Of a stretch of 64,000 nt of DNA, positions 48,138 through 57,436 are shown piece after piece. The position numbers and the translations under genes are program-made. The notes under the pieces are model-generated. The model was given only the letters and a program-made list of their open reading frames with translations. It was not told the DNA's origin and did not search any database. The stretch's first letter is position 1; each line of letters starts with the position of its first letter. The DNA is taken from positions 256,001 through 320,000 of the forward strand of contig CAXXLQ010000004.1 of assembly GCA_963668695.2 (NCBI GenBank). Reading direction: 5' to 3'. Origin of the DNA: Vicinamibacteria bacterium. Its GTDB lineage: Bacteria > Acidobacteriota > Vicinamibacteria > Marinacidobacterales > Marinacidobacteraceae.

Positions 48138-48603
48138 CAGCCGGTGGTGGGACCCGGGTCAGCGCCGAGCCCGGCCAGTCCTCCCGGTGGGGGCGAGGCC
48201 CAGTTCTCCCGGTGGGGGTCCGGCTGACAAGGCGCGTGAGGGAGGAGCCCCCACCGGGAGAACTGGCCCGGGTGTACTCCGACCGAAACGCAACGATGAG
48301 CGGCGCGCAGCGACGCGGTTCAGCCGGGATGGATCGCCGGCCGAGCCCCCACCGGGAGAACTGGGCCGCGTGGGTTTCACTACCGGTTGTTTCGCCGGGA
48401 TGGATCGCCGGGCGAGCCCCCACCGGGAGAACTGGGCCGCGCGAGTTTCATTACAGGCTGTTTCGCCGGGATGGATCGCCGGGCGAGCCCCCACCGGGAG
48501 AACTGGGCCGCGCGAGTTTCATTACAGGCTGTTTCGCCGGGATGGATCGCCGGGCGAGCCCCCACCGGGAGAACTGGGCCGCGTGGGTTCCACCACCGGC
48601 TGC
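48135..48603. mobile_element. Composite MITE-like family A element
   Basis: TAG-CAGCCGGTGGTGG ... CCACCACCGGCTGC with internal ~71-bp tandem units. Confidence 0.85.
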
Positions 48604-53445: not shown

Positions 53446-54035
53446 CAGGTCGCAGTAGCAGGACTGGCGGGACGCCAACATGTCGCACTAGCCGGTTCCG
53501 CCGGATATACATGTCGCACTAGCGGGATCGGCGGGACGCCAACATGTCGCACTAGCCGGATCTGCCGGGCGAACATGTCGCACTAGCGGGATCGGCGGAA
53601 CGCGAACATGTCGCACTAGCCGGATCTGCCGGGCGAACATGTCGCACTAGCGGGATCGGCGGGACGCCAACATGTCGCACTAGCCGGTTCCGCCGGATGT
53701 ACATGTCGCACTAGCGGGATCGGCGGGACGCCAACATGTCGCACTAGCCGGTTCCGCCGGATGTACATGTCGCACTAGCGGGATCGGCGGGACGCCAACA
53801 TGTCGCACTAGCCGGTTCCGCCGGGCGAACATGTCGGCCTAGCAGGACCGGCAGGACGCCAACATGTCGCACTAGCCGGATCTGCCGCGCGAACATGTCG
53901 CAATAGCAGGGTCGGCGGAACGCGAACATGTCGCACTAGCCGGATCTGCCGCGCGAACATGTCGCACTACCGGGATCAGCGGGACGCCAACATGTCGCAG
54001 TAGCCGGATCTGCCGGGCGAACATGTCGCTCTAGC
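53446..54035. repeat. Tandem array: 18 copies (plus 1 degenerate) of ACATGTCGCACTAGC with alternating 16- and 18-bp linkers
   Basis: Cores run from 53478 to 54021 at alternating 31/33-bp spacing (64-bp dimer). Confidence 0.95.
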
Positions 54036-54087
54036 GATTCGACAAACCCTGATTCGAAATCTCGGGGGGCTCCGGTAGGCTGTCGCC

Positions 54088-54663
54088 GTGGCCGACGACG
54101 GGAGACAGCGGGCAGAGCTGCGGGGCGCGATCCGGGAAGAGGGATTCCGTCTCGGGTTCTCCGCGGTCGGATTCGCCCCACCTCGGATGCCCGAAGCCGG
54201 CCGGCAGTTCGAAAAGTGGCTGGACGATGGGAACCACGGGACCATGCACTGGATGGCCACGGATCCCGGCCGGCGGAGCGACGCCACGAGGACACGGGTT
54301 CGCGACGGGAACGATTCGGCCGCATTGCCAGAGCGGACCGTCGTGGCCTGCGGACTCAACTACTACCAGGGGGGTCCGGCCTCCGCGCCCTCCGGCGGCG
54401 GGGTGGTTTCCCAATACGCTCAAGGCGAGGACTACCACCGGGTGCTGGATTCGAAGCTCCGCGCCCTTGCGGCGTTCGCCCAAGCCCGCGCCATCAAAGC
54501 CGGCCTGCTGCCCGAGCGCTCGCCGGGCGCGCGCCGGCGCATCCCGACCCTCGTGGATCACGGACCGCTGCTTGAGAAGGCGTTCGCGGAACGGGCTGGC
54601 CTGGGATGGATCGGCAAGCACTCGAACGTGATCGCCACCCGGGGCAGCTCGTGGTTCTTCCTC
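54088..54663 (+). pseudogene. queG: Truncated epoxyqueuosine reductase (N-terminal part only)
   Basis: GNHGTMHWM, YAQGEDYH, LEKAFAERAGLGWIGK and SSWFFL, after which homology is lost; no 4Fe-4S CxxCxxC motifs follow. Confidence 0.8.
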
Positions 54664-54867
54664 CGGCGGACGGGTGCGCCCCTACGGGAAGCCGCCCGGT
54701 CGGACCAAGCCCATCACCGCTGCGCGTTTCGCGGCCCTGCGGGCCGCGATGCCGACCGGAGGTCGGCGGTCCCCTCACTCCCCGCGCTTGCCGCCGTTCA
54801 GCACTCCGCCTTTCACCAGCCTTCGGCTGGCAGTGCCGGTCTTCAGGCCCCCTATAGGATCACGGGC

Positions 54868-55053
54868 GTTGTGTAGGAGGCGGTTTCGCCTCCTACTTCA
54901 TCAACTTCGGTTGGCCGATCCGCCGGGAGTACCAAGAGGCCCCGGTGCCGCAAGCACCTGTGGTGGACCAGTACCCCGACGGATGGCCGTGATGGGACAC
55001 CCTGTGGAGAGTTGTGCCGATCGAGCACCAATATAGGGCTTGACTGCCATCGC
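54868..55053 (+). ncRNA. Putative IS110 bridge RNA (5' stem-loop, target-binding loop, donor-binding loop)
   Basis: Hairpin 54873-54896; stem 54913-54932/54971-54988 enclosing AGAGGCCCC and GGTGG around GGTGC/GCACC; stem 54989-54995/55047-55053 enclosing GGAGAGT and TATAGGG around GTGC/GCAC. Confidence 0.8.
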
Positions 55054-55071
55054 GGCAAGGCGGACCGCTCG

Positions 55072-55769
55072 ACACCGGCGACGGCGCGGAAGGTGCGGTG
55101 CTCCACCTGGGAGAAGCTGCTGCGGCACTACGGGGTGACCCGGATCAGCGCGGACCGGGTGGTTGCGTTGTTTCGTGAGGAGGCGCTGACGGTGGCGCCC
55201 GGGGCCACCGCCGCGGCGGTGGAGACGATTCGGACGGCGTTGGCCCTGCTGGAGGTTGTGAACGCGGAGATCGCGCGTGCGGAGAAGCAGATGACGCAGT
55301 TCCTGGATGCGCTGTCGGAGACGGAAGCGGTGGGAGGCGGCGCGGGCGCGACGGCTCCGGATCCGGTCACCATCCTGCGGTCTCGGAAGGGGTTGGGAGA
55401 CAAGGCGCTGGCGCGGCTGTTCGCCTGGGGATTCGAGGCGGTGTGCGCCGGGGACCACGGCCGGTTGCGAGCGGCCTCCGGGGCGGCCCCCCCGTCCGGG
55501 TGCAGTCCGGAGAGCGCGACACGGCCCGGATGCGGCGTGCGGTGCCCTACTCGCTGCAGCAGGCCGCCTACCTCCTGGCACGCGGGGTGTTGCGCTGGGA
55601 CGAGGACGTGAAGGCATACAGCCGGAAGCTGAAGGACGCGGGGAAGACGACGGCCCGGCGGCATCGCGCCATCGCCGACCAGCAGTTCCGGGTGTTATGC
55701 GCGATGGCGCGACACCGCACCTTCTTCGACCCGAACTTCGCCGCCAGGAGCCCAAAATCCGCCGCCTGA
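55072..55769 (+). pseudogene. IS110 recombinase remnant: C-terminal half, frameshifted, RuvC-like DEDD domain missing
   Basis: TILRSRKGLG..., GAAP/VRVQSG (frameshift in the C7 run 55487-55493) and RAIADQQFRVLCAMARHRTFFDP. Confidence 0.85.
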
Positions 55770-55771
55770 CT

Positions 55772-55956
55772 TAACAGCCTGTGGCGAAACCCACGCGGCG
55801 TTCAACCGGCGATCCATCCCGGCTGAACCACTCCGCTTCGCTGCGTTCTGCGTTGCGTTTCGGTCGAAATACACCCGGTATTCCTCCCTCACGCGCCTTG
55901 TCAGCCGGGCGCCTCACCGGCCTCGGCGCTCACGCGGGTTCCACCACAGGCTGTTA
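55772..55956. mobile_element. Minimal 185-bp family A element inserted in the IS110 right end
   Basis: TA-ACAGCCTGTGG ... CCACAGGCTGT-TA; lacks the 19-bp module. Confidence 0.88.
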
Positions 55957-56038
55957 ACCCTCCCTTCCTCCTTGCATTCTCCAGGAGAGTCCACCGGGAG
56001 AACTGGCCGGCGGTCCCTGCCGGACGGATCCTCGGCGC

Positions 56039-57436
56039 CTAGCGAATCGCGGCCTGCATCTCCTCGACGCTCACGAACTTCACCCGCGGACGGCCCTCGG
56101 CCTTGCCGCGCGCCACCTCGAGGGCGTCCAGCGCCTTCCAGTCGGCGAACGAGAAGTAGGTGGGAACGCGCTCGGCCACGAAGCGCTCCGCCGACTCGGC
56201 GGACGGGGATTCCGGGTGCCAGTGCTTGCCGGCCGCGACGTCCTCGAGCAGCACCCGCACGGTCTCCAGGGCGTCGGGCTTGTTGGTGCCGATCACCCCG
56301 GTGGGACCGCGCTTGATCCAACCGGCGCAGTACTGGCCTTCCTGGTGCTCCCCGTCCGGGGAGTCGAGCACCCGGCCGACCGCGTGCGGGATGACTCCCC
56401 AGTCATCGCGGAACGGCACGTCGGGTAGCGCGACCCCCCGGTAGCCGACCGAACGGAACACCAGACCGGCAGCGAGATCCTCGAAATGATCGGTGGCGCG
56501 CGGGCGGACCGTGCCCCGTTCGTTGCGGTAGAGCTCGTTCTTCACGAGCTTGACCCGGGTAACCGCACCATCTTCGCCGGCAATCAGTTCCACTGGGGAA
56601 ACGAGGAACCGGACGGTCAGCGTTCGCAGTTTGCCGGACCGTTTTTCGGCGGCGTACTGCTGGAGGATCTCGACCTTCCTCGGGGCCGACCTGTCGGCGC
56701 CGGAATCCACCCATTCCTGGCTCACCGCATCAAGCGCCGCTTCTTCTTCGAAGACCCGGATGTCGGCGCCCGCGAGTTCCCCGAGCTCCTTGATCTCGGG
56801 ATTGCTGAACGCAGCCTGCGCCGGACCCCGCCGGCCGAGCATGTGGATCTCGCGAATCCGGCTCTCCGCGAGCTGCTCCAGCGCGTAATCAGCGATGTCG
56901 GTCGTTTTCAGCTCGTCCACGGAACGGGCCAGCACCCGGCAGACATCCACTGCCACATTGCCGACCCCGACGACCGCGACCGATTCCTGGGAAAGGTCGA
57001 ACTCCCGATCCCGGTAGTCCGGGTGACCGTTGTACCAGGCCACGAACTCGGTCGCCGCGTGGCTCCTGCCGAGGGACTCGCCGGGAATCCGCATGGCCCG
57101 GTCCACCTGCGCCCCCACGCAATAGAGGACCGCGTGGTAGTGGCGCCGGACATCGGCCAGCCGGATGTCGCTCCCGAACTCGACGCCCCCGTAGAAGCGG
57201 AAGCGCGGGTTCTGCGCGGTGCGCTCGTAGGCGCGGGTCACCGACTTGATCTTCTGGTGATCGGGAGCCACCCCGCCGCGCACCAGACCGTAGGGGGTCG
57301 GCAGGCGGTCGTAGAGGTCCACCTCCACGGTGACCCCAGCGGCCTTGAAGAGATGATCGGTTGCGTAGAAGCCGGTCGGGCCGGATCCGAAGACCGCGAC
57401 CCGCAGCGGGTGTTCGGGGGTGCCGGGTTTCGTCAC
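56039..57436 (-). CDS. fprA: Ferredoxin-NADP+ reductase, adrenodoxin-reductase/FprA-like
   Basis: GSGPTG, PYGLVRGGVAPDH, GVGNVAVD, GRRGPAQAAF and GWIKRGPTGVIG. Confidence 0.9.
   Translation of the reverse strand: MTKPGTPEHPLRVAVFGSGPTGFYATDHLFKAAGVTVEVDLYDRLPTPYGLVRGGVAPDHQKIKSVTRAYERTAQNPRFRFYGGVEFGSDIRLADVRRHYHAVLYCVGAQVDRAMRIPGESLGRSHAATEFVAWYNGHPDYRDREFDLSQESVAVVGVGNVAVDVCRVLARSVDELKTTDIADYALEQLAESRIREIHMLGRRGPAQAAFSNPEIKELGELAGADIRVFEEEAALDAVSQEWVDSGADRSAPRKVEILQQYAAEKRSGKLRTLTVRFLVSPVELIAGEDGAVTRVKLVKNELYRNERGTVRPRATDHFEDLAAGLVFRSVGYRGVALPDVPFRDDWGVIPHAVGRVLDSPDGEHQEGQYCAGWIKRGPTGVIGTNKPDALETVRVLLEDVAAGKHWHPESPSAESAERFVAERVPTYFSFADWKALDALEVARGKAEGRPRVKFVSVEEMQAAIR

What the first reader, a model, noticed from the sequence alone, without database searches (positions are those of the whole stretch)
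54845..55998. IS110 bridge RNA whose guides can be read directly: CC core, targeting the genome's abundant 19-bp module
Seen: the ~185-nt non-coding left end folds into a 5' hairpin and two stem/internal-loop/hairpin domains. Loop 1 contains AGAGGCCCC (54935-54943), matching the left flank AGGCC-CC, and GGTGG (54962-54966), complementary to the right flank CC-ACC. Loop 2 contains GGAGAGT (55006-55012), identical to the element's right end (55984-55990), and TATAGGG (55032-55038), complementary to CC-CTATA at the left end. Established: this is the target-loop/donor-loop logic of IS110 bridge recombinases such as IS621, which has a CT core and targets REP repeats. Inference: a new bridge system with a CC core whose target guide GAGGCCCCACC matches the common module context GAGCCCCCACC at 10 of 11 positions. 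The system class is known; this instance, core and target appear new to me.
Basis: partly seen in the sequence, partly recalled or inferred. Interest (0 to 1): 0.9.

Follow-up and report, generated by a model that had tools for sequence, protein, structure and literature searches.

The report
Decayed IS110 element with intact bridge RNA
This is a broken copy of an IS110-type jumping gene that still carries a complete guide ("bridge") RNA whose loops spell out both its own ends and the very common short repeat it landed in; the class is known, so it is a well-documented new member and not a new kind of system.

Summary
54853-55990 is an IS110-group insertion sequence flanked by a CC core (54851-2 and 55991-2). 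Its left end folds into a 5' hairpin plus two stem/internal-loop/hairpin domains. That fold is kept in 19 relatives from several phyla: 95% of cells paired, and 21 of 33 pairs show compensatory change.

The loop strands match the left flank, right flank, right end and left end by 7, 5, 7 and 6 bases; 1 of 100,000 loop shuffles does as well. In six sister families of the same genus the target guides and the left donor guide change together with the flanks and ends.

It lies in a 19-bp module present about 1,085 times.

This copy is dead. About 190 N-terminal codons (the catalytic domain) are deleted, the remainder is frameshifted, and a 187-bp MITE is nested in the right end. Intact 423-aa orthologues exist in a sister genome. 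Verdict: a new member of a known kind, of moderate interest.

The parts
54835..54852 (+). Left half of the target. It comprises the REP-like arm GCCGG, the left target AGGCCC (54845-54850) and the left copy of the CC core (54851-54852).
   Evidence: Read. The same left junction (five C before TATA) occurs in 14 of 15 A/B/C insertions. The empty orthologous site has five C.
54853..55990 (+). The IS110-group element proper, 1138 bp, running from TATAGG to GGAGAGT.
   Evidence: The ends were defined with an intact relative of 1986 bp. Bases 1-217 are 93% identical to that relative and bases 218-918 are 82% identical.
54855..54860 (+). A -10-like hexamer, TAGGAT. It would sit 17 nt after the right-end -35 only when the right end is joined to the left end.
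   Evidence: Read by eye. A TAnnnT at this distance is kept in families A-E; for F only the left-end half was seen, because its right end was not reached. No promoter tool was run on the junction.
54873..54896 (+). 5' stem-loop of the bridge RNA (10-bp stem, GUUU loop).
   Evidence: Fold.
54918..54984 (+). Target-binding domain. Outer stem 54918-54931/54972-54984; inner hairpin 54945-54957.
   Evidence: In the outer helix, 9 of 13 pairs show compensatory change across 19 sequences.
54937..54943 (+). Left target guide AGGCCCC. It is identical to 54845-54851 (six flank bases plus the first core C).
   Evidence: It covaries with the flank in families A, A2, B/C, D and E; family F's match was read by eye.
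54962..54968 (+). Right target guide GGUGG, complementary to CC-ACC at 55991-55995. It is followed by AC, which is complementary to the donor's last GT (55989-55990): a handshake guide.
   Evidence: The handshake rule comes from passages of PMC11208158.
54986..55056 (+). Donor-binding domain. Outer stem 54986-54994/55048-55056; inner hairpin 55014-55028.
   Evidence: Population variants 55015 T>C and 55027 A>G occur together in three runs and keep the pair.
55006..55012 (+). Left donor guide GGAGAGU, identical to the right end at 55984-55990.
55032..55038 (+). Right donor guide UAUAGG, complementary to CC-TATA at 54851-54856. G55038 is complementary to the target's last C (54850): a handshake guide.
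55070..55769 (+). Recombinase remnant covering only residues about 171-401 of the relative, in two reading frames. The frame breaks in the G/C run at 55480-55493. The DEDD domain is absent.
   Evidence: tblastn (74% and 68% identity to the G004 protein). Pfam finds only a weak PF02371 hit. The deletion corresponds to bases 219-824 of the relative.
55771..55957 (.). A nested 187-bp MITE-like repeat with 25-nt imperfect terminal inverted repeats. It is not part of the IS.
   Evidence: It is absent from the right ends of the relatives.
55972..55977 (+). A -35-like hexamer, TTGCAT, in the right end.
   Evidence: Read by eye. TTGCAT, TTGCAC, TTGCGT, TTGACA or TTGCAA sits at the same distance from the end in families A-E.
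55991..56011 (+). Right copy of the CC core (55991-2), the right target and rest of the module ACCGGGAGAACTGG (55993-56006), and the REP-like arm CCGGC (56007-56011).
   Evidence: CC-ACC[G/A]GG follows the right end in 15 of 15 A/B/C insertions.

Best explanation
54853-55990 is a decayed copy of an IS110-group insertion sequence, in a Vicinamibacteria-type acidobacterial genome.

While active, the element would have worked as IS621 does. Excision joins the right end to the left end across a CC core. That join puts a -35 (TTGCAT) 17 nt from a -10-like TAGGAT and drives a bridge RNA of about 190 nt from the left end.

The first internal loop of that RNA reads the target. [quoted passage not shown] The second internal loop reads the donor. 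[quoted passage not shown] Two handshake positions (AC after GGUGG, G after UAUAGG) fit the other partner's strand after the first strand exchange.

A DEDD/serine recombinase then exchanges strands at CC. This places the element inside the loop of a REP-like hairpin that holds the 19-bp module CCCCCACCGGGAGAACTGG.

Shown here: the anatomy, the guide-to-flank matches, their covariation in sister families, the core, the target, and the decay of this copy.

Inferred by homology with IS621: transcription, RNA binding, and the chemistry.

This copy keeps a structurally intact bridge RNA gene and both ends. It has lost about 190 N-terminal codons of the recombinase, is frameshifted, and carries a nested MITE. 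It is therefore not autonomous and most likely inert.
For: Motifs and coordinates were read.

Chance control: 1 of 100,000 shuffles reaches the observed match total.

Fold: z = -3.14 for the single sequence. In 15 genus sequences, 92.7% of cells pair against 28-48% when the partner is slid, though only 4 of 30 pairs show compensatory change. In 19 sequences from several phyla, 95.0% pair against at most 45.3% when slid, 21 of 33 pairs show compensatory change, and 0 of 500 shuffles reach any of the five measures.

Guide/flank covariation, left guide against left flank:
- A: AGGCCCC
- A2: GCCGG.CCCC
- B and C: GAGCCCC
- D: ACCGGAGG
- E: GGCGTTCC
- F: ATGGAGCGC (read by eye; not a row of the matrix)

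Right guide against right flank: CCACC(G) in A-C, TCCGGCGT in D, CCAAGC in E.

Left donor guide against right end: GGAGAGT, GTAGAAGG, AGAGAGTC.

In the cross-family matrix, own-family matches are 6-8 (left target guide), 5-8 (right target guide) and 7-10 (left donor guide, except family B). Against other specificity classes they are mostly 0-5.

Core and register: the empty orthologous site has five C. Family E has the unambiguous junctions GTT-CC-TATAGG and GAGT-CC-AAGC.

Family membership: intact relatives carry PF01548 plus PF02371. One also gives a sub-threshold match to the NCBIfam model named 'IS110 family RNA-guided transposase' (124.5 bits, cut-off 140).

Decay of this copy.

Target abundance.

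Published rules: passages of PMC11208160 and PMC11208158.
Against: No direct evidence of the RNA. The one RNA-library contig over 54571-55014 (depth 5.2) runs in from the flank. It stops where the DNA contigs of three runs also stop, and it could be DNA carry-over.

No circle junction was seen in the contigs, and contigs cannot show rare forms.

Rfam 15 gave no relevant match (best E = 0.37, to an unrelated lncRNA model).

Within the genus most stem pairs never vary, so the fold's covariation support comes mainly from distant relatives. The tested structure was itself predicted from the same alignment.

The right donor guide cannot be tested for covariation, because all families start with (core)-TATA; matches are 5-7 everywhere.

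Pairing differs from IS621. The left target guide covers only the first core base. The left donor guide has U then G opposite the core CC, which is at best a wobble. In this copy the right target guide is only 5 nt; the G004 copies have 6.

Family B's left donor guide matches its own right end by only 5 contiguous bases (one G opposite A), and it fits family A's end better.

There is one off-diagonal 7-base match (A2 guide against a family E flank).

The empty site comes from another species' paralogue/orthologue comparison, not from this locus. The relatives lack the repeat at the window's own locus.
Confidence: 0.9

Rival explanations
1. The relic is still mobile, or still drives rearrangements, as a non-autonomous element. 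Its intact bridge RNA and ends would be used in trans, either by the one intact IS110 recombinase of this genome (family D, C4:482 kb, 415 aa) or by a cognate recombinase in a co-resident strain.
For: The bridge RNA gene has no broken helix, and both ends and both core copies are intact. The scaffold stems are almost invariant between families A-E of the genus (15 of 26 outer- and inner-stem pairs never vary). G000 has one intact IS110 gene (Pfam). According to the outline of a 2026 bioRxiv preprint, trans action of a recombinase on split donors was tested for ISPpu10 (I saw the abstract and section list only).
Against: G000 holds only one copy with a left end. The C1 copy is an assembly duplicate, and the other copy (L003) is 5'-truncated. 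So there is no sign of multiplication. The family D protein is only 43% identical to family B, and A is 64% identical to B. Deletion derivatives in G001 and G014 are also single and differently broken, which looks like decay. No excision or circle joint appears in four runs.
Confidence: 0.07
2. The loop-to-flank matches are coincidences of a G+C-rich, C-run-rich sequence, and the left end is merely a structured 5' leader of the transposase gene.
For: The genome is 67.5% G+C. The matched words are short (5-7 nt) and rich in C and G. A crude longest-match test over 130-nt flanks did not separate own pairs from foreign pairs.
Against: Only 1 of 100,000 shuffles equals the four matches. The matches sit exactly at the junctions. 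They change in step with the flanks in six families while the stems stay fixed. The strand polarity is the published one.
Confidence: 0.02
3. The target has four C and the element begins with C54852. This is the reader's register: donor junction with three C, and insertion only into the rarer four-C modules.
For: With four C, the left target guide would pair with both core bases, as in IS621, and TATAGGG would pair fully with CC-CTATA. The A2 copy (L064) fits its guide at 8 of 9 positions in this register. Four-C modules do exist (182 of 1,354).
Against: The orthologous empty site has five C. Every left junction equals a common five-C context: CTTCAGG, CTGAAGG or GAG followed by CCCCC. L064's junction equals an existing GGG+CCCC context. 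Family E has unambiguous junctions and starts at TATAGG. The -35 to TATA spacing then equals that of families D and E. The extra G or GG after UAUAGG is explained as a handshake guide.
Confidence: 0.08

Closest known systems
IS621 of Escherichia coli (IS110 group), the founding bridge RNA system (Durrant et al. 2024, PMC11208160; Hiraizumi et al. 2024, PMC11208158; passages read)
   Same: [quoted passage not shown] The first loop reads the target and the second reads the donor, with the same strand polarity. There is a dinucleotide core and no other duplication. A promoter is split between the right and left ends. Handshake positions are present. The target is a repeated extragenic element.
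   Different: The core is CC, not CT. The left target guide pairs with six flank bases plus one core base (IS621: seven plus two). The left donor guide does not pair canonically with the core. The RNA is about 190 nt rather than 177 nt. The host is an acidobacterial lineage. This copy lacks the catalytic domain.
ISPpu10 of Pseudomonas putida (IS110 group; bioRxiv 10.64898/2026.03.19.712850; abstract and outline seen)
   Same: It inserts into many copies of one conserved intergenic repeat that forms a GC-rich stem-loop.
   Different: Here the site lies inside the loop of the hairpin, within an extra 19-bp module. Whether the hairpin contributes to recognition was not tested.
IS1111 group elements with a right-end bridge or seek RNA (as described in PMC11208160)
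   Same: They have a DEDD recombinase and an RNA-guided choice of target.
   Different: In IS1111 the RNA is in the right end, and there are long subterminal inverted repeats. Here the RNA is in the left end and the native right end is short. It is about 30 nt in family B; the window's is lengthened by a MITE.
Sister families B-F in the same genus and family (loci L064-L092) and relatives 38-42% identical in Longimicrobiales, Rhodothermales, Alphaproteobacteria and other MAGs
   Same: They share the same scaffold. For example, the GGGAG...GAGCACC...GGAC...CCCCG frame is kept.
   Different: Their guide words, targets and copy numbers differ. The element is present in up to 14 copies per genome among the 80 loci returned.

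Membership tests
IS110 family, IS110 group | A recombinase with an N-terminal DEDD (RuvC-like) domain and a C-terminal Tnp domain | tested here: not met
   In this copy only the C-terminal part remains. Pfam gives a weak PF02371 hit (E = 0.039) and no PF01548. tblastn covers residues about 171-401 only. Intact relatives of the same element do meet the feature: PF01548 plus PF02371 in L067, L062 and L084, and 423-aa ORFs in L063 and L064. The element is therefore a degraded member.
IS110 family, IS110 group | Long non-coding left end and short right end; no terminal inverted repeats; insertion without duplication beyond the core | tested here: met
   In the relative the left end runs about 250 bp before the ORF. 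The native right end is about 30 nt in family B. Comparing the empty site with the occupied site shows that only CC is shared.
Bridge RNA (IS621 type) | [quoted passage not shown] | tested here: met
   Across 19 sequences 95% of cells pair and 21 of 33 pairs show compensatory change.
Bridge RNA (IS621 type) | In the first loop, the 5' strand is identical to the left target's top strand and the 3' strand is complementary to the right target's top strand, and both covary with the targets | tested here: met
   There are six specificity classes for the left guide (five in the matrix; F read by eye) and three for the right guide.
Bridge RNA (IS621 type) | The second loop matches the right end and the left end of the element | tested here: met
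   The left donor guide matches in A, C, D and E, with one G-opposite-A in B. The right donor guide matches CC-TATA, but it cannot be tested for covariation because the left ends are alike.
Bridge RNA (IS621 type) | [quoted passage not shown] | tested here: not met
   The right target and right donor guides include both core bases. The left target guide includes only the first. The left donor guide has U and G opposite CC. This is a difference of detail and does not affect the logic.
Bridge RNA (IS621 type) | Handshake guides that fit the non-cognate partner and not the cognate one | tested here: met
   A54967 and C54968 fit the donor's GT and not the target's CC. G55038 fits the target's C; against the donor's T it would form only a wobble. 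C55039, however, fits the donor's own G, which is a cognate match (read; rule).
Bridge RNA (IS621 type) | A sigma-70 promoter reconstituted across the right-end/left-end junction | tested here: inconclusive
   The motifs are present at a fixed distance in families A-E (-35-like hexamer, 17 nt, TAnnnT; read by eye); family F's right end was not reached. No tool was run on the joined sequence and there is no transcript data.
Bridge RNA (IS621 type) | The RNA is made and binds the recombinase | not testable with these tools
   There is only one low-depth RNA-library contig, which also covers the flank.
Rfam families | A match to a curated covariance model | tested here: not met
   One search gave four matches with E between 0.37 and 7.6, all to unrelated families and far below their gathering scores.

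The most novel reading that the evidence does not exclude
The recombinase-less relic is not inert. The bridge RNA scaffold is almost invariant across the genus's IS110 families. The genome's one intact IS110 recombinase (family D) could therefore load this orphan RNA. It would then be re-aimed at the 86 AGGCCCCCACC sites, mobilising the relic or recombining between module copies. On this reading, orphan bridge RNAs would act as exchangeable guide cassettes shared among co-resident IS110 lineages.
Probability: 0.06. Interest if true: 0.65.

Novelty: new member of a known kind. Interest (0 to 1): 0.33.

Why it matters
The finding shows that a bridge RNA's four guides, its core and even its handshake bases can be read from raw sequence in an uncultured acidobacterial lineage. 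The reading survives tests against sister elements and an empty site.

It supplies a natural set of closely related IS110 elements with a CC core (A, A2, B, C, E) or a TC core (D). Their target guides have been re-written in nature while the scaffold stayed fixed. Intact 423-aa recombinases are available in a sister genome for testing.

It also links these elements to an unusually abundant 19-bp module, about one copy per 3.6 kb, whose own origin is unexplained.

None of this changes the known mechanism. The value lies in a well-characterised new member and in one refinement: the left guides need not pair with the whole core.

Tried and rejected
- **Rfam scan of 54400-56400 at E up to 10.** It returned nothing relevant.

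- **Empty site at the window's own locus.** Fourteen relatives hold the right-flank gene. None has the repeat or module at this place, so no empty site could be read there. In those relatives queG runs on to its end.

- **Empty site for a G014 insertion.** The flank proved to be a repeat with hundreds of matches and was useless.

- **Automated longest-match test of left guides against 130-nt flanks.** It covered 76 of 80 loci and 21 distinct guide windows. The own and foreign distributions overlap (own 4-11, foreign 3-9), so the test is inconclusive. One row (L133) was mis-anchored. By eye, at least 10 of the 21 have a match of 7 or more bases abutting the left end.

- **Laying four runs.** No contig joins 55990 back to 54853. 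The listed 'skips' from about 54750 to 55991 have sides of 18-27 letters, and some carry other letters in between. I read them as other REP/module copies, not excision. The RNA-library contig says nothing firm about transcription. The runs found were otherwise not used, and I draw no habitat from them.

- **Family F right end and family D2 left end.** Neither was reached within the fetched stretches, so those rows are missing from the right-flank and donor tables.

- **Rows dropped from alignment A1.** Of 32 left ends (the window plus 31 loci), 19 were distinct. I left out L065, L066 and L091 (truncated) and L076 (same RNA as L072), and aligned 15.

- **Rows chosen for alignment A3.** I aligned the window plus 18 rows picked by eye from 55 distinct upstream regions. 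The other 37 were not used. Four loci (L147, L203, L206, L207) showed no left end in the stretch. Two rows were cut short at the 5' side by my choice of coordinates.

- **Supplements.** Supplements of the cited papers were closed. Durrant et al.'s supplementary catalogue of IS110 elements might already list this family, and I could not check.
Full report
**1. What is at the coordinates**

- AGAGGCCCC at 54935-54943
- GGTGG at 54962-54966
- GGAGAGT at 55006-55012 and again at 55984-55990
- TATAGGG at 55032-55038

The left junction reads TTCAGG, five C (54848-54852), then TATAGG. The right junction reads GGAGAGT, CC, then ACCGGGAGAAC.

Folding 54850-55060 alone gives -93.2 kcal/mol, z = -3.14, and 1 of 200 shuffles folds as well. 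The fold shows a 5' hairpin and the first stem/internal-loop/hairpin domain. In that single-sequence MFE the loop-2 region pairs instead with the first bases of the folded stretch; the second domain comes from the alignment folds in section 4.

I compared the four loop strands with the four junction words. The longest exact matches are 7, 5, 7 and 6 bases. Only 1 of 100,000 composition-preserving shuffles of the loops reaches that total.

**2. What the element is**

The open frames inside give only a weak hit to the C-terminal IS110 domain and none to the DEDD domain.

The window's genome (G000; the window is C4:256001-320000) holds the element three times:
- The window copy.
- An identical copy on contig C1. 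This belongs to a 99.9% duplicate of the whole region, so it is an assembly duplicate.
- A 5'-truncated copy at C4:792954, which lacks the left end.

Query positions about 913-1119 match 37 further places at 90-98% identity. Only 40 of 600 candidates were scored, so this is a lower bound. That stretch (55771-55957) is a separate 187-bp MITE-like repeat with 25-nt imperfect terminal inverted repeats, nested in the right end.

A search with the left end found matches in 12 of 61 related genomes, G000 included. I fetched 32 loci.

Intact relatives encode recombinases of 415-423 aa with PF01548 plus PF02371. One also gives a sub-threshold match to the NCBIfam model named 'IS110 family RNA-guided transposase' (124.5 bits, cut-off 140).

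Measured against the intact G004 element (1986 bp), the window element (1138 bp) compares as follows:
- Its first 217 bases are kept at 93% identity.
- The counterpart of bases 219-824 is missing. That stretch holds the start codon and about 190 codons, which is the whole catalytic domain.
- The rest is kept at 82% identity.

tblastn covers residues about 171-401 in two frames. The break lies in the G/C run at 55480-55493. The truncated second copy is out of frame at the same run, but in the other direction.

The copy is therefore a relic with an intact left end, both ends and both core copies, but no working recombinase. G000 has one intact IS110 gene of a different family at C4:482 kb.

**3. 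Do the guides covary with the flanks and ends?**

The relatives fall into families with nearly the same scaffold but different loop words.

| Family | Where found | Left flank + core | 5' strand of loop 1 | Notes |
|---|---|---|---|---|
| A | window; two copies in G004 | AGGCCC-CC | AGGCCCC | |
| A2 | one copy in G004; left end 84% identical | GCCGGGCC-CC | GCCGGCCCC | |
| B | five copies in G009 | GAGCCC-CC | GAGCCCC | |
| C | six copies in G014 | GAGCCC-CC | GAGCCCC | one C copy has AAGCCC-CC |
| D | G000, G004 | ACCGGAGG-TC | ACCGGAGG | |
| E | G004, G007, G008, G010 | GGCGTT-CC | GGCGUUCC | |
| F | three copies in G018 | ATGGAGCG-CC | AUGGAGCGC | read by eye; not in the matrix |

The 3' strand of loop 1 is complementary to CC-ACC(G) in A-C, to TC-CGGCGT in D and to CC-AAGC in E. 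These are the right flanks found.

The 5' strand of loop 2 equals the right end: GGAGAGT in A, GTGGAAAGT in C, GTAGAAGG in D and AGAGAGTC in E. Family B is the exception. Its guide has G where its own end has A.

In the cross-family matrix, own-family matches are 6-8 for the left target guide, 5-8 for the right target guide and 7-10 for the left donor guide (5 in B). Matches to other specificity classes are mostly 0-5. There is one off-diagonal 7 (A2 guide against a family E flank).

The right donor guide matches core-TATA in every family, so it carries no covariation information.

All 15 A/B/C insertions examined lie at the same point of the same repeat.

**4. Is the fold conserved?**

In 15 genus sequences, 92.7% of cells pair, against 28-48% when the partner is slid. 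Most pairs never vary, however, and only 4 of 30 show change on both sides.

A protein-guided scan of species-representative genomes returned 80 loci. They include elements only 38-42% identical in protein, from MAGs titled Longimicrobiales, Rhodothermales, Alphaproteobacteria and others. Their upstream regions carry the same frame.

In an alignment of the window plus 18 of these, RNAalifold recovers five helices: the outer and inner helices of both domains, plus a short middle helix in the second domain.

On that structure:
- 95.0% of cells pair, against at most 45.3% when slid.
- 21 of 33 pairs change on both sides.
- 0 of 500 shuffles reach any of the five measures.

Two caveats apply. The structure was predicted from the same alignment, and I picked the rows by eye.

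The window sequence forms four of the five helices. The middle helix of the second domain pairs at only one of its three positions in the window sequence.

In three metagenome runs the variants 55015 T>C and 55027 A>G occur together at equal depth, which preserves a pair of the inner donor hairpin.

**5. Core, register and target**

The right flank of one intact G004 insertion (L063) matches G000 at 98% identity. At that place G000 has the unoccupied site: GCCGGTCTTCAGG, five C, then ACCGGGAGAACTGG.

The occupied site has five C before TATAGG and two C after GGAGAGT. The donor junction therefore carries two C. The element starts at TATAGG (T54853 in the window) and ends at GGAGAGT (55990). The only bases shared by donor (T-CC-T) and target (C-CC-A) are CC.

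Family E has junctions with no ambiguity and gives the same ends.

Several things follow:
- The left target guide AGGCCCC pairs with six flank bases and the first core base. The next RNA base already belongs to the inner stem.
- The right target guide pairs with both core bases plus ACC.
- The G after UAUAGG (GG in families B and C) is complementary to the last C (CC) of the left target. The AC after GGUGG is complementary to the last GT of the right end.
- That is the arrangement published as handshake guides, which fit the other partner's top strand after the first exchange (passages of PMC11208158).
- One blemish: C55039 would fit the donor's own G.

**6. The repeat that is hit**

- The word ACC[G/A]GGAGAAC occurs 1,415 times in the four contigs and 1,354 times in C4. 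Of those 1,354, it is preceded by five C in 1,040 cases and by four C in 182.
- The exact 19-mer CCCCCACCGGGAGAACTGG occurs 1,085 times in C2-C4.
- It shows no strand bias and has preferred spacings to its neighbours.
- AGGCCCCCACC, the word the window's guides specify, occurs 86 times, against about 12 expected from base composition.
- GAGCCCCCACC, the word for families B and C, occurs 649 times.
- The AGG contexts are mostly modules sitting in the loop of a REP-like hairpin: GCCGGTCT[TC/GA]AGG, the module, then CCGGC.

The claim that the element targets the abundant module is therefore right. It targets a minority context of that module, not the commonest one.

**7. Promoter**

I read this by eye only. 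In families A-E a -35-like hexamer (TTGCAT in the window, 55972-55977) lies 13 bases from the right end. Family F's right end was not reached. With the two core bases and the first two bases of the left end, this puts it 17 nt from a TAnnnT (TAGGAT, 54855-54860). Such a promoter exists only when the ends are joined, as published for IS621.

In the integrated state the corresponding upstream hexamer is AGTGCC, a poor -35.

**8. Expression and mobility**

One metatranscriptome contig (444 nt, depth 5.2) covers 54571-55014. It runs in from the flank and ends where the DNA contigs of three runs also end, so it shows nothing firm.

No contig shows a circle or an empty site at this locus. Contigs would miss rare forms.

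**9. Comparison with what is known**

The anatomy and logic are those of IS621-type bridge RNAs (PMC11208160; passages). That paper reports predicted bridge RNAs in 85.7% of IS110 elements catalogued in ISfinder, and covariation across thousands of orthologues.

The differences here are:
- a CC core (TC in family D) instead of CT
- a left target guide that covers only one core base
- a left donor guide that does not pair canonically with the core
- a target inside a hairpin loop, which recalls ISPpu10's stem-loop target (abstract only)

A full-text search for the genus label of the relatives found no paper. I made no other search for prior description of this family, and the supplements were closed.

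**10. Verdict**

- **Observation:** confirmed.
- **Interpretation:** supported, with four corrections: the register, the exact target context, the dead state of this copy, and the novelty.
- **Novelty:** a new member of a known kind.
- **Interest:** moderate. It rests mainly on a clean natural series of re-written guides on a fixed scaffold, and on the link to an unexplained hyper-abundant 19-bp module.

Noticed in passing
window, both strands, e.g. 9537, 9684, 29271, 46580, 48249-48560, 53388; genome-wide: A 19-20-bp module, GCCCCCACCGGGAGAACTGG, has 1,085 exact copies of the 19-mer in about 3.95 Mb. It shows no strand bias (614 against 618) and has preferred neighbour spacings of 71, 49, 98, 18 and 25 bp. 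It is present or absent at A-CCGG sites inside REP-like hairpins, and at two or more sites inside the 187-bp MITE. How so short a unit spreads is unexplained.
   Followed up: partly
window 55771-55957: A 187-bp MITE-like repeat with 25-nt imperfect terminal inverted repeats beginning TTAA. G000 holds at least 37 further copies at 90-98% identity. Summed contig depth over it is several hundred to about two thousand times that of the flanks in four runs.
   Followed up: partly
window 53449-54036: A tandem array of a 64-bp unit, 9.2 copies at 90% matches. Similar arrays lie at C4 at about 574 kb, 977 kb, 2,555 kb and 2,888 kb.
   Followed up: no
window 54088-54876: The queG frame matches only positions 1-163 of the 337-position QueG model. 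Relatives keep the full gene up to the convergent oxidoreductase gene. In this genome the 3' half seems to be replaced by REP/module repeats and the IS.
   Followed up: partly
L003 (G000:C4:791454-795385), locus positions about 1229-2548: A second, 5'-truncated copy of the same IS, carrying the same nested MITE. It is bracketed by a direct repeat of about 70 bp. An unoccupied five-C module lies about 170 bp downstream.
   Followed up: no
L079-L083 (G004) and L141-L146: Family D2 copies are identical for more than 260 bp upstream of the bridge RNA. The repeated unit is therefore larger than a simple IS, or the left end is much longer.
   Followed up: no
L088-L090 (G018): Family F elements carry more than 1.2 kb after the recombinase gene, including an internal duplication of about 300 bp. 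The right end was not reached, so they may carry cargo.
   Followed up: no
G000 contig C1 (132851-142687) against C4 (306001-316000): Contig C1 repeats the window region at 98.7-99.9% identity. This is assembly redundancy or a second strain, consistent with the 9.3% contamination estimate.
   Followed up: partly
L084 flanks; L086, L087 and L092 flanks; L104: Families D and E insert into, or just after, the plain REP-like hairpin GCCGACCGGAGGTCGGCG. D inserts at GG-TC-CGGCG and E at GCGTT-CC-AAGCC. An apparently empty E-type site was seen in G006. Different IS110 lineages of this genus thus partition different parts of the same repeat system.
   Followed up: partly
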